Below, one piece after another: positions 14,224 through 21,153 of a stretch of DNA of 64,000 nucleotides. The position numbers and the translations under genes were made by a program. The notes beneath the pieces were generated by a model. The model ran no database searches, was not told the origin of the DNA, and was given only the letters and a program-made list of their open reading frames with translations. Each line of letters starts with the position of its first letter. Position 1 is the first letter of the stretch. Source of the stretch: Dictyostelium discoideum (Eukaryota); NCBI GenBank assembly GCA_000004695.1, contig CM000152.2, forward strand, positions 3,776,001-3,840,000, read 5' to 3'.

Positions 14224-15400
<1,177 letters not shown>

Positions 15401-16234: not shown

Positions 16235-17355
16235 ATCAAATATTATATTTTATTCTCATATATCATTTTGTGTATTTTTGAATTTTCTATTTTTATGTAA
16301 TATTAAATTTTATTTTATATAATTTTTTGTCTGATAGGTTGGGATGTTAAAAAAAAAAAAAAAATGGAAAATTAATTTTATTATGACAACACGTGTTGTG
16401 ATAATACATGTATTTTTAATTTTGCTTTTGGTCTTTTAGTGAATTTTGTTATTTAATTTCACTACACGAGCCCAGTGAAAAAAAAAAATCACTCACCTTA
16501 ATTTTTTTTTTTTCAAAAGCTTATTGATGATTTTCTCTTTATTTACCAAATAAATCAGTTGATCTATTTAAAGAAGAATTTAATTTTGGCACCATATTTG
16601 CACCGACTAATGGTTTACGTTGAATAAAACTTGTTGATCTATTTGGTGATTTGAGAGGTGATTTGGATGGTTTGGAATGTTACCTTTAAAATTGAAAAAA
16701 GTGGGAGTGTGATTGTGGTTACTTTGCTGATTAACCACTTTCTTTTATATTTTTTATTTTTATTTTTTTTTTTGTAGAGGTCACATAATATTTATAATTA
16801 TTTAATTATAATTATGTTATATTTATTTAATTTTATTTAATTTCAATTTTTTTTTTTTTTTTTTTTTTTTATTGCACCTCCTACAATAAATAAAAACAAT
16901 AACTATTATTTTTTTTCATTTTTTTATTTTTTTTATTATTAATTATTAAATATTTATAAATTATCCTTTTACTTTTATTAATTTTAAATATTATATATAC
17001 AATAACTTATTATACCGCTGGTTGTTCAATCTCTGTTCCAAGAAAGATGCTAATTAATTCAAATAAAATTGCTGACTGTGGCACCAATGGTATAATGTTT
17101 ATTGCTTTTAATTATGAAACTAGTAAAAAGAGTAATTTTAAAGAAACTATCAAAAAGAATATTTGATAATGAAATAAATGGCCATAGAATCATTAGAAAT
17201 TAAGTTTTTCAAAATCTTTTCAAAGGTGTTAAACATATTTCAACTTTTCAAAGTATTTTTAAATCCATATTAAAAAATGAATTTTAATTTATCTAACACA
17301 ATTATGATTATTATAAGGGTAAATTTAAAATAAAAAAAAAAAAAAAAATAAAAAA

Positions 17356-18486: not shown

Positions 18487-19739
18487 ATGGAAATTAAAGA
18501 TATTATCATAAATAGTAATTTAATGTTACCACCACCAACAATTTTAACAATAAATAATAAAGATGATTATACATCATTTACTTTTAAAGGGAAATCTATA
18601 TCGGTACCAAGGAAACAAAGAATAACAAAAAAAACAATTTATGCCTGTGATATAAATGGTACAATGTTTCAAACATATAATATGGATACAAACCGATTAT
18701 TAATAATTAAAAAAATTTCACTTTTACAATTTAAAAATCATTTACAAGGTAGAATGATGTTAAGAAATTGTCATTACCAAAGATTTTTTAATCATCATCC
18801 ATTTGTATCTGGTTTTAAAGTTTCAAAAAGAAAATCATTAAATATTAAAACAAAAAATCTAATTGAATCTCCAGTTGATGATGGTACTGATTTATATTTT
18901 GAATTTGACCAATCTGATTTCACTTTATACCAAATGATTAGATCAGATAAAGCAGCTTCAAGAAAACAATGTCCATATGTTTTGTACCAATTATTAACAA
19001 CTATCAAATATATAAACTCTGCTGGTGTAATTCATAGAAGTCTTGACCCAAAAACAATTGCAGTTAATAAAGAATATAAAACTAAATTATTTGATTTTAG
19101 TTTTTCAATTTCAACAGACTATCCAACAGATATCTTTTTTAAAGATTATGAAGAAACTCCATGGCCATATCGTTCTCCTGAAACAATAATAATGTTAAAA
19201 GAATTTTCATTTGAATGTGATGTTTGGTCGATTGGTGTAATATTTGCTGAATTAATTTTAGGTGAACAATTATTTAGAGGTGAAAGTAGTAAGTATTAAT
19301 TTTTAATTTTTTAATTTTTTAATTTATATAATTAATTTATTTAATTTTTTTTTTTTTAAAAGAACAATCACTTCTTATAGAAATTTCAGAATTAATTGGT
19401 ACACCAACATATGATGAATGTAAAGAATCAACTAATGGTTTCGCTAGAAATTTTATTTTAAACATTCCATTAAAATCAAGACATGGTGGAATTAAAAAAA
19501 GAATTCCAAATGCAACTGAAGAAGAAATTGAAATTTTAGAAGGAATGTTATGTTGGAATCCAAAGAAAAGATGGCCAATTGAAAGAATTATTCAGCATCC
19601 TTATTTTCAAAATTATTGTCATATTGAACAATATAAATGTGATAAAAAATTCTCACTTGGTTCTCCATATGTTTTTCATAGATTAAATGCAAAAGAAATT
19701 AAAAAAATAATTGAAGATGAATTTGTTACCCAACCATAA
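18487..19739 (+). CDS. CMGC/CDK-like protein kinase homolog, probably a pseudokinase. Exons: 18487..19288, 19363..19739.
   Basis: The kinase core is recognisable: LYFEFDQSDFTLYQMI, VLYQLLTTIKYINSAGVIHRSLDPKTIAVN, KLFDFSFSIS, WPYRSPETII, DVWSIGVIFAELILGEQLF, and after a GTAAGT...AAAAG phase-1 intron, LIGTPT…W.P.KR…HPYF. However HRD is HRS (the catalytic Asp is lost), DFG is DFS, and there is no GxGxxG loop. Confidence 0.75.
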
Positions 19740-21153
19740 AAAAAAAATATATATTTATTATAAAAAATAAATATCAACTTGTATATAGTTTTAATATGTT
19801 TTTTAAATTAAAAAGTAAAAAAAAAAAGAATAAATAAATAAAAAAAAGAAATTAAAAAGTTTTAAAATCCTAAAAAATACATATATTTATTTATTTCATA
19901 CTAATTCTTGATTGTAAACCTTTTAACTCTATTTTCTTTTCTTAACTATAAAAAATGTTGTTGCAGCAATTGCAAAAGCACCACCAATTGGAAGAGCAAC
20001 AGCAAGTGGGATGACGATTTGAACTATCACATGAAGTTTTAAAATCAGTTGATAATAAAACAGAGAAATCTATTAATTTAAAAAAAAAAAAAGAAAAAAA
20101 AGAAAATTAAAATTAATAATATGTTATAAATTTATCTTTTTTTTTTAAAAAAAAAACATACCAGGATCAATTAAACATGAAGTTGTAAAATGAGGTAAGT
20201 TTAATCAAACTATAACTGATGTTTCATCTTTTGAAATAATAGAAGATGAAATTAATGTTGATCTATAATCTACTACCGCTTGATTTATTAGTCTACCAAA
20301 TAAAGTTTTACCATTCTTTTTAATTTCAATATAATTAATTGCTGATAATGAATTTTCATCTTGAGTTTCAACTTTAGTATGGGTCAATCATTTTCTTTTT
20401 TATTTATATCTTCAGTTACATCTGATTTCATTTGAATTTGTAAACTATATTACATTCTTGATTGGATTTACAATCACAAATGCAAGAACCAGAATTACAG
20501 TCACAAAAGCTATTACCTGTTCAGTTTGTACTACAACTTAAATATTGGTTTAAAAAGTCTGGAATTATAGTGAGTAGGACATTTGATTGAAGTTGAAGTT
20601 GAAGAAATGGTGGTATTTGCATCAACTATATAAGTTGAGCTATTAAAACCTTCTAAAACTGAACAAGTTATTTGATTAAATATGGCTTTGGTAACTATAC
20701 AATTAATTTCATTACTATTGTTATCTAAACCAACAACTGATATTATACTTGTATTATAATATCAAGACCCATGGAACCAACTAAAATAATTTTGTTTAAA
20801 AAATGTACTGTTAGATTTATAAATTAAATGATATCTTTTTAAAAATTATTTCGAAAACATATTTACAATTGCTCAAACTTTGTCAATTGTGAAAAATAGA
20901 AAATACGATTAAACTTAATTTCTGTACTTGTCATTATACTTTTTTAAAACAAAAAAAAAAATTAGTTTGGAACATATCAATCTTTTTTTTAATTTTTTTT
21001 TTTAAAAATAAAAATACGTACAATGCTTTTAATTTGAGATTTGGTATATCATCAAAAAAATTTGACGTTATGTTGCCTTTAATAAAAAAGAAAAAAAATA
21101 AAAATAAATATTTTTTAAACAAGCACCTAAAAAATAATTTTAGGTAATTTAAA

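What the first reader, a model, noticed from the sequence alone, without database searches (positions are those of the whole stretch)
18487..19739. CDK/MAPK-like kinase with catalytic-motif substitutions: a probable pseudokinase
The gene is intact (clean splice, full-length ORF) and retains the CMGC scaffold through to the HPYF C-lobe. However it has HRS-L-D-P instead of HRD-L-K-P, DFS instead of DFG, W-P-YRSPE instead of the usual activation-segment residues, and no glycine-rich loop. An intact ORF with a dead catalytic centre is the signature of a regulatory pseudokinase rather than a decaying pseudogene.
Basis: partly seen in the sequence, partly recalled or inferred. Interest (0 to 1): 0.55.

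Follow-up and report, generated by a model that had tools for sequence, protein, structure and literature searches.

The report
Known Dictyostelium MAPK-like pseudokinase gene
This is the Dictyostelium discoideum gene DDB_G0280855, a MAP-kinase-shaped protein with a dead catalytic centre that evolution has nevertheless kept intact; it was already listed as a predicted inactive kinase in 2006, so the finding is correct but not new.

Summary
A two-exon gene on the + strand (18487-19288 and 19363-19739, with a 74-nt GTAAGT...AG intron) encodes a 392-aa protein-kinase fold. It carries HRSLDP in place of HRDLKP, DFS in place of DFG, TPWPYRSPE, and only one of the three glycines of the glycine loop.

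The pseudokinase interpretation is supported, with three refinements:
- The protein derives from a MAPK (ERK-like), not a CDK.
- The VAIK lysine (K75) and the DFG aspartate (D203) are kept.

It is not a decaying pseudogene or a sequencing error:
- Six Dictyostelium genomes carry the same motifs.
- dN/dS is 0.05-0.17.
- Published RNA-seq shows roughly 100-fold induction at 8-10 h of development.

It is already known. The protein sequence is identical to D. discoideum AX4 DDB_G0280855 (UniProt Q54US6, "Probable inactive serine/threonine-protein kinase"). Goldberg et al. 2006 list it as DDB0229333, CMGC/Dicty1, predicted inactive, "LIIK / HRSLDPKT / DFS, lacks D166".

The biological function is untested. 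The most likely role is non-catalytic binding during development. Interest is low.

The parts
18487..19288 (+). Exon 1 of DDB_G0280855 (codons 1-267 plus the first base of codon 268): N-terminal motif, N-lobe, catalytic loop and activation segment
   Evidence: ORF and splice reconstruction. The spliced product is identical to XP_640945.1 / Q54US6.
19289..19362 (+). 74-nt AT-rich intron, GTAAGT...AAAAG. An intron also interrupts the same part of the CDS in all five orthologues and the four tandem paralogues whose gene models were rebuilt.
19363..19739 (+). Exon 2: alphaG, MAPK insert, alphaH-I (HPYF at 19596-19607), C-terminal L16-like helix, TAA stop
18520..18615 (+). Family-specific N-terminal motif LMLPPPT...G(K/R)SISVPRK (residues 12-43). 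Many positions are invariant across all three Dicty1 subfamilies. The second half aligns with the N-terminal beta-hairpin that precedes the glycine loop in MAPKs.
   Evidence: Alignment A1; alignment to ERK2
18643..18660 (+). Degenerate glycine-rich loop A53-C-D55-I-N-G58 (ERK2 G32, G34, G37 -> A, D, G)
18700..18711 (+). LIIK = VAIK equivalent. The beta3 Lys (K75) is retained. The adenine-contacting Ala is replaced by Ile (I73).
   Evidence: Goldberg Table S2
18766..18768 (+). N94 at the position of the alphaC glutamate (ERK2 E71 / PKA E91); invariant Asn in the whole family
19033..19056 (+). Catalytic loop HRSLDPKT: D166->S185, K168->D187, N171->T190 (PKA numbering)
19093..19101 (+). DFS in place of DFG: Mg-binding Asp (D203) retained, Gly->Ser
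19141..19182 (+). Activation segment K219-D-Y221-EETPWPYRSPE: TEY->KDY (Thr lost, Tyr kept), TRW Arg->P225, one-residue insertion (P227), CMGC Arg R229 and APE Glu E232 kept
16997..17263 (+). Decayed remnant of the tandem Dicty1 paralogue (subfamily B), which is intact about 1.1-1.3 kb upstream of the orthologue in four other genomes. It is frameshifted, has in-frame stops, and has lost about 950 bp downstream.
   Evidence: tblastn; sequence; blastn junctions against L004

Best explanation
The region is the D. discoideum AX4 gene DDB_G0280855. It is one of three members of the Dictyostelium-restricted CMGC family Dicty1.

Shown. It encodes a complete MAP-kinase fold: N-terminal hairpin, both lobes, MAPK insert and a C-terminal L16-like helix. 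The phosphotransfer machinery has been dismantled. The catalytic base is Ser instead of Asp. The catalytic-loop Lys and Asn are Asp and Thr. The alphaC Glu is Asn. Two of the three loop glycines are gone. The adenine pocket is lined with bulkier or different residues (Y52, M60, I73, F202). The Thr of the TEY dual-phosphorylation motif is Lys. Despite this, the gene is under strong purifying selection and is switched on about 100-fold at 8-10 h of development.

Inferred. The protein does not phosphorylate anything and is not activated by a MEK in the classical way. It most likely works by binding, as a scaffold, decoy or allosteric partner for another protein of the mound-stage signalling network. 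Binding would use the conserved C-lobe and remodelled-cleft surfaces, as other pseudokinases do. The partner is unknown.
For: Identity. The protein exactly matches XP_640945.1 / Q54US6, 'Probable inactive serine/threonine-protein kinase DDB_G0280855'. Goldberg et al. [quoted passage not shown]

Fold.
- Pfam Pkinase E=2.1e-30.
- The PDB sequence hits listed are all MAPKs, 8.7e-40 to about 1e-34, and the MPK6 alignment runs to residue 387.
- The AF2 model has pLDDT 83.5 and pTM 0.83, with helices in the MAPK-insert region and at 377-389.
- The top 50 Foldseek hits are all MAPKs, with TM up to 0.90.
- 120 of the 149 best HMMER representatives carry RWYRAPE (106 of them also TxY), against 5 that are CDK-like.

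Dead centre. Residue audit against 38 MAPKs and human ERK2, whose sequence was verified against PDB 3sa0.

Selection.
- dN/dS (NG86) is 0.054-0.171 over 15 pairs of 6 orthologues, with bootstrap 97.5% bounds <=0.215.
- All motif residues are invariant, with synonymous variation at S185, D187, P225 and P227.
- The tandem paralogue evolves faster (omega 0.21-0.48) and has been deleted in AX4, while this gene stays intact.

Expression. PMC11367525 Table S1 gives 1.4-1.9 rpm at 0 h and 71-186 rpm at 10 h; log2FC 6.99, adjusted p 7.9e-97.
Against: - No biochemical test exists, so inactivity is predicted from sequence only. From general knowledge, some kinases lacking the HRD Asp (HER3, JAK2 JH2) keep weak activity.
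- K75 and D203 are retained and invariant in the orthologues, so some nucleotide or metal binding cannot be excluded.
- The canonical MAPK docking surfaces are only partly kept. The CD site is D318->H354 and D321->E356. The FRS has Y233->K and L234->Q. A simple 'ERK decoy' model therefore has no specific support.
- The protein was not found in the stored proteomics supplements of PMC11367525 (some files were truncated when stored).
- No knockout or interaction data were found.
Confidence: 0.8

Rival explanations
1. An unconventional but active kinase. The invariant Asp187, two residues after the lost HRD Asp and at the position of the catalytic-loop Lys, substitutes as catalytic base. It would work together with the retained K75 and D203, analogous to the relocated lysine of WNK kinases.
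For: D187 is invariant in all 14 Dicty1 sequences examined. K75 is invariant in all 14, and D203 in the seven orthologues. K189 occupies the position of the Arg in the tyrosine-kinase HRDLAARN loop (read from the sequence). Strong purifying selection acts on the cleft residues.
Against: At least seven canonical elements are missing at once: two glycine-loop Gly, E91, D166, K168, N171 and G186. An acidic residue at the K168 position would repel the gamma-phosphate. Adenine-pocket residues are replaced by bulkier ones (I31->Y, V39->M, A52->I, C166->F) and the hinge is changed. The D at position 168 predates the D166->S change, because the paralogues have HRDxD. It therefore did not arise as compensation.
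Confidence: 0.06
2. A decaying pseudogene that merely happens to retain an open reading frame.
For: Catalytic motifs are lost. Both flanking genes are degenerate in AX4.
Against: The 392-395-aa ORF is intact, with an intron at the corresponding place, in six genomes of at least four species. dN/dS is 0.05-0.17 at dS up to 0.63. Transcription is strongly regulated.
Confidence: 0.02
3. HRS and DFS are sequencing or assembly errors in an otherwise ordinary MAPK or CDK.
Against: The same residues appear in independent assemblies of AX4, two further D. discoideum strains, two D. cf. discoideum strains, two D. citrinum strains, D. dimigraforme and D. firmibasis. Codon-level synonymous differences show these are independent sequences. 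D->S needs two nucleotide changes (GAT->AGT).
Confidence: 0.01
4. A CDK-derived, cyclin-binding pseudokinase (the other half of the first reader's 'CDK/MAPK-like' label).
For: General CMGC similarity. One JGI fragment annotated as a cyclin-dependent kinase hits at 34% identity over 47% of the query.
Against: There is no PSTAIRE-type helix; alphaC reads GRMMLRNCHYQRFF. All the best sequence and structure matches are MAPKs. The MPK6 alignment runs through a MAPK-specific C-terminal extension.
Confidence: 0.03

Closest known systems
CMGC / Dicty1 family of the Dictyostelium kinome (Goldberg et al. 2006, PLoS Genet 2:e38): DDB0229333 (this gene), DDB0229296 = DDB_G0280557, DDB0229841 = DDB_G0280643
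   Same: The sequence is the published DDB0229333 entry, with motifs LIIK/HRSLDPKT/DFS and predicted inactive. The three subfamilies form one clade (100% bootstrap, NJ). They share the alphaC Asn, HRxxDP, loss of the DFG Gly, K-[DE]-Y in place of TEY and the LMLPPPT/SISVPRK N-terminus. All three are developmentally induced.
   Different: Only this subfamily has lost the HRD Asp. It keeps the DFG Asp, whereas most paralogues have E or Q there. It is the most slowly evolving of the two subfamilies measured (omega 0.05-0.17 against 0.21-0.48). It is induced last: 8-10 h, against 2 h and 4 h.
Classical ERK-type MAP kinases (human ERK2/MAPK1, Arabidopsis MPK6 and MPK4)
   Same: Same overall fold, including the N-terminal hairpin, MAPK insert and C-terminal L16-like helix. 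About 26% identity to ERK2. The CMGC Arg (R229), APE Glu, D245 and R337 are kept.
   Different: No catalytic Asp, Lys or Asn. No alphaC Glu. No glycine loop. No Thr in TEY. Phospho-binding Arg R67, R172 and R191 are lost. The CD docking acidic pair is reduced to one Glu.
Pseudokinases lacking the HRD aspartate, such as HER3/ErbB3 and the JAK2 JH2 domain (from general knowledge, not tested here)
   Same: Loss of the catalytic base in an otherwise folded kinase domain that is conserved and acts allosterically or as a scaffold.
   Different: Those belong to the tyrosine-kinase group, still bind ATP, and have known partners. Here the parent is a MAPK, the adenine pocket looks remodelled, and no partner is known.

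Membership tests
Eukaryotic protein kinase domain (Pfam PF00069) | Significant match to the Pkinase profile over the whole domain | tested here: met
   E=2.1e-30, 106.4 bits (cut-off 31.7), residues 58-349 against profile positions 13-263
Pseudokinase (criterion of Manning 2002 and Goldberg 2006) | Lacks at least one of PKA K72, D166, D184 | tested here: met
   D166->S185 in three independent alignments and in the published table. K72 (K75) and D184 (D203) are present.
Pseudokinase (functional, not a pseudogene) | Intact ORF conserved under purifying selection, and expressed | tested here: met
   Six intact orthologues, dN/dS 0.054-0.171. RNA-seq shows induction to 71-186 rpm.
Pseudokinase (biochemical) | No phosphotransfer activity in vitro | not testable with these tools
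   Needs purified protein. No publication found.
CMGC / Dicty1 family | Listed member; monophyletic with DDB_G0280557 and DDB_G0280643 | tested here: met
   The exact sequence is in Table S2 of PMC1420674. The clade has 100% NJ bootstrap.
MAP kinase (CMGC/MAPK) | Closest sequence and structure relatives are MAPKs; MAPK insert and C-terminal L16 extension present | tested here: met
MAP kinase (CMGC/MAPK) | T-x-Y dual-phosphorylation motif in the activation loop | tested here: not met
   K219-D220-Y221; invariant in the orthologues
MAP kinase (CMGC/MAPK) | Intact catalytic residues (HRDLKPxN, DFG, alphaC Glu, GxGxxG) | tested here: not met
   HRSLDPKT, DFS, N94, A-C-D-I-N-G
MAP kinase (CMGC/MAPK) | Acidic common-docking (CD) site, ERK2 D318/D321 | tested here: inconclusive
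   H354 and E356 align there, but the alignment is gapped in this segment
Cyclin-dependent kinase | PSTAIRE-type cyclin-binding alphaC helix; CDKs as nearest relatives | tested here: not met
   alphaC reads GRMMLRNCHYQRFF. 5 of the top 149 representatives are CDK-like against 120 MAPK-like. No CDK among the top 50 fold matches.

The most novel reading that the evidence does not exclude
DDB_G0280855 is not dead. It would be a kinase, or another nucleotide-dependent enzyme, with a rewired active site in which the family-invariant Asp187 together with K75, D203 and K189 replaces the canonical HRD/K/N triad. That would explain why the remodelled cleft residues are invariant under strong purifying selection. 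A milder novel reading is that the three Dicty1 genes, induced in turn at 2 h, 4 h and 8 h, form a lineage-restricted, development-timed set of MAPK-shaped regulators of ERK signalling.
Probability: 0.06. Interest if true: 0.6.

Novelty: already known. Interest (0 to 1): 0.17.

Why it matters
The finding matters little as a discovery. The gene, its odd motifs and the prediction of inactivity have been in the literature since 2006 and are part of its UniProt name.

- It has strong purifying selection across the D. discoideum species complex.
- It is more constrained than its HRD-bearing tandem paralogue, which AX4 has lost.
- It is sharply induced at the mound stage.

MAPK-derived pseudokinases are uncommon. 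D. discoideum has only two active MAPKs and one MEK (PMC1420674). That makes this gene a tractable place to ask what a MAPK-shaped non-enzyme does, but that remains an open experimental question rather than a surprise.

Tried and rejected
- Full-text searches for DDB_G0280855, DDB0229333 and Q54US6 found no paper discussing the gene. The one hit for paralogue DDB_G0280557 was only a row in a differential-expression table, and that paper's supplements did not contain our gene.
- The Parikh 2010 supplements are not held.
- YN00 dN/dS returned nan or absurd dS for most pairs, probably because of the extreme AT bias, so NG86 values with bootstrap were used.
- A first ERK2 mapping with mafft --keeplength dropped ERK2 columns and gave wrong positions. 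It was discarded and redone with a full realignment (then).
- A Biopython bootstrap tree timed out and was replaced by a numpy NJ bootstrap.
- Model coordinates are not exposed, so side-chain geometry (D187 and K75 relative to the cleft, pocket volume) could not be measured.
- No family member was found outside D. discoideum, cf. discoideum, citrinum, dimigraforme and firmibasis. This held in an exhaustive HMMER scan of 1.84 billion representatives and in two profile searches. No orthologue from D. purpureum or more distant dictyostelids was available for deeper dN/dS.
- D. discoideum ErkA and ErkB sequences were not retrieved, so the parent MAPK subfamily (ERK1-type or ERK7-type) was not resolved.
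- The CDK, sequencing-error and decaying-pseudogene readings were rejected; see the rival explanations.

Full report
**What is there.** The window is extremely AT-rich (19.7% G+C).
- On the + strand an ATG at 18487, preceded by an in-frame TAA 21 nt upstream, opens an ORF that runs to 19288.
- A 74-nt intron with a GTAAGT donor and an AAAAG acceptor (19289-19362) joins it in frame to a second exon, 19363-19739, ending in TAA.
- The product is 392 aa.
- That sequence is residue-for-residue identical to D. discoideum AX4 XP_640945.1 / EAL66969.1 / UniProt Q54US6. UniRef names it [quoted passage not shown]. The longest contig carrying it is 6.43 Mb long.

- The protein matches Pfam Pkinase at E=2.1e-30.
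- The glycine-loop equivalent reads A-C-D-I-N-G.
- Placement of these residues does not depend on one alignment. Four sources agree: phmmer against Arabidopsis MPK6, a 52-sequence MAFFT alignment with 38 MAPKs, a realignment with human ERK2, and the published HMM alignment. My recalled ERK2 sequence was first verified as identical to PDB 3sa0.
- The catalytic-loop stretch is ungapped and flanked by identical residues, so Ser185 unambiguously occupies the catalytic-Asp position.

**It is MAPK-derived, not CDK.**
- All 60 listed PDB sequence matches are MAPKs, and the MPK6 alignment extends to residue 387, through the MAPK-specific C-terminal extension.
- In an exhaustive HMMER scan of 1.84 billion representatives, 120 of the 149 best non-self hits carry RWYRAPE (106 of them also TxY), against 5 CDK-like.
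- An AlphaFold2 model (pLDDT 83.5, pTM 0.83) shows helices in the MAPK-insert region and a terminal helix at 377-389. Its 50 best Foldseek matches in the PDB are all MAPKs, with target-normalised TM up to 0.90.

**Audit of the catalytic machinery (ERK2 / PKA numbering).**
- Lost:
  - G32 and G34 of the glycine loop (A53, D55).
  - alphaC Glu E71/E91 (N94).
  - Catalytic Asp D149/D166 (S185).
  - Lys K151/K168 (D187).
  - Asn N154/N171 (T190).
  - DFG Gly (S205).
  - Thr of TEY (K219).
  - Phospho-binding Arg R67, R172 and R191 (M90, I208, P225).
- Kept:
  - beta3 Lys (K75), DFG Asp (D203) and the Tyr of TEY (Y221).
  - CMGC Arg (R229), APE Glu (E232), D245 and R337.
- Adenine-pocket lining residues are remodelled, several to bulkier side chains: I31->Y52, V39->M60, A52->I73, C166->F202, L156->A192, and hinge L107/M108->Q142/S143.

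**Not an error and not a decaying pseudogene.**
- Orthologues occur in two further D. discoideum strains, two D. cf. discoideum strains, two D. citrinum strains, D. dimigraforme and D. firmibasis (84-98% identity). All have HRSLDP, DFS and PW[PQ]YRSPE.
- I rebuilt the CDS of five of them from genomic loci; each has an intron at the corresponding place.
- Pairwise dN/dS (Nei-Gojobori) is 0.054-0.171 at dS up to 0.63. Bootstrap 97.5% limits are <=0.215.
- Codons for S185 (AGT/AGC), D187 (GAC/GAT), P225 and P227 show synonymous differences between species. The amino acids themselves are therefore being conserved.
- Published RNA-seq (PMC11367525, Table S1) gives 1.4-1.9 rpm at 0 h, 3.4-8.5 at 6 h, 35-61 at 8 h and 71-186 at 10 h of development; log2FC 6.99, adjusted p 7.9e-97.

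**Already known.**
- Table S2 of Goldberg et al. 2006 (PMC1420674) lists this exact sequence as DDB0229333: group CMGC, family Dicty1, "partial kd", predicted activity "i", motifs LIIK / HRSLDPKT / DFS, "lacks D166".
- The paper states that 29 ePK domains are predicted inactive by the K72/D166/D184 criterion, and that Dicty1 is a Dictyostelium-specific CMGC family.
- The other two members are DDB0229296 (= DDB_G0280557; HRDIDPSA/EFY, "i") and DDB0229841 (= DDB_G0280643; HRDLDPEN/EFN, "active, qualified").
- No paper in the searchable corpus discusses the gene's function.

**Family context (new here, but incremental).**
- Exhaustive and profile searches find Dicty1 members only in the D. discoideum species complex.
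- An NJ tree gives three subfamilies, each with 100% support. A is DDB_G0280557-like, B is DDB_G0280643-like and C is this gene. The whole family is monophyletic against MAPKs (100%), with A+B sister at 82.5%.
- Shared changes (alphaC Asn, Lys168->Asp, Asn171->Ser/Thr/Ala, loss of the DFG Gly, Thr->Lys in TEY) predate the split. HRD->HRS is specific to the stem of subfamily C.
- In D. firmibasis, D. dimigraforme, D. citrinum and one D. cf. discoideum strain, an intact subfamily-B gene lies about 1.1-1.3 kb upstream of the orthologue. It evolves faster, at omega 0.21-0.48.
- In AX4 only a 267-bp frameshifted remnant of that gene remains (16997-17263), next to a deletion of about 950 bp.
- All three AX4 Dicty1 genes are nearly silent in growing cells. 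They are induced in sequence: DDB_G0280557 from 2 h, DDB_G0280643 from 4 h, and this gene from 8 h.

**How it most likely works.**
- Shown: a complete MAPK fold, a dismantled catalytic centre, strong constraint, and developmental induction.
- Inferred: no phosphotransfer; no classical MEK activation, because the Thr and three of the phospho-binding arginines are lost; and action by protein binding (scaffold, decoy or allosteric partner) at the mound stage.
- A simple "ERK decoy" is not specifically supported, because the CD and F-site docking residues are only partly conserved.
- The invariant N-terminal LMLPPPT motif and the invariant remodelled cleft are candidate interaction surfaces.
- The main rival is a rewired active site using the invariant Asp187. 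It cannot be excluded without biochemistry but is unlikely, because so many elements are missing at once and because D187 predates the loss of D166.

**Verdict.** Novelty: already known. Interest: low.

Noticed in passing
window 16997-17263 (+): Decayed remnant of a second Dicty1 kinase-like gene (subfamily B). It is 88% identical in DNA to codons of about 64-152 of the intact tandem gene of D. cf. discoideum (L004 1451-1716). It has a frameshift and in-frame stops, and about 950 bp (L004 1717-2669) are deleted. A full-length subfamily-B gene survives elsewhere on the same chromosome as DDB_G0280643. This suggests duplication or relocation followed by loss of the original tandem copy.
   Followed up: partly
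window 19944-21119 (-); related stretch 37687-38466 (+): The gene downstream on the opposite strand is a 1058-1083-aa TIG / ComC_SSD protein in the other Dictyostelium genomes. In AX4 only disconnected fragments remain (D. firmibasis residues 122-226 and 532-632 of the main exon; about 0.9 kb and 1.3 kb missing relative to L004), with no long ORF. A 28%-identical relative lies at 37687-38466. Both neighbours of the intact pseudokinase are therefore degenerate in AX4.
   Followed up: partly
window 18520-18615 (+), residues 12-43: The N-terminal motif LMLPPPT(x13)G(K/R)SISVPRK is conserved, with many positions invariant, across all three Dicty1 subfamilies, although they are otherwise only 33-42% identical. 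The proline-rich part lies largely in the low-confidence N-terminal segment of the AF2 model (pLDDT <50 for residues 1-17). Its role is unexplained; it could be a peptide-ligand motif.
   Followed up: no
literature: PMC11367525 Table S1 (DDB_G0280557, DDB_G0280643, DDB_G0280855): The three Dicty1 genes are induced one after another during early development: from 2 h, from 4 h (peak at 8 h) and from 8 h. Each rises by 6.5-9.5 log2 units from near-silence in growing cells.
   Followed up: partly
window 14224-15400 (+): The upstream ORFs encode a poly-Asn-rich protein. One segment (ORF residues 127-161) matches the GATA zinc finger, Pfam PF00320, at E=8.5e-6 and 25.7 bits, just under the gathering score of 26.8. 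It is probably a GATA-type transcription-factor gene.
   Followed up: partly
P0011 (Logan assemblies, contigs <=1028 bp): A 270-aa 'protein' in the public collection is exon 1 of this gene read through into the intron (...RGESSKY*). It is an artefact of intron-blind gene calling on short contigs. It differs from AX4 at one residue (I126N), so it may come from another strain.
   Followed up: no
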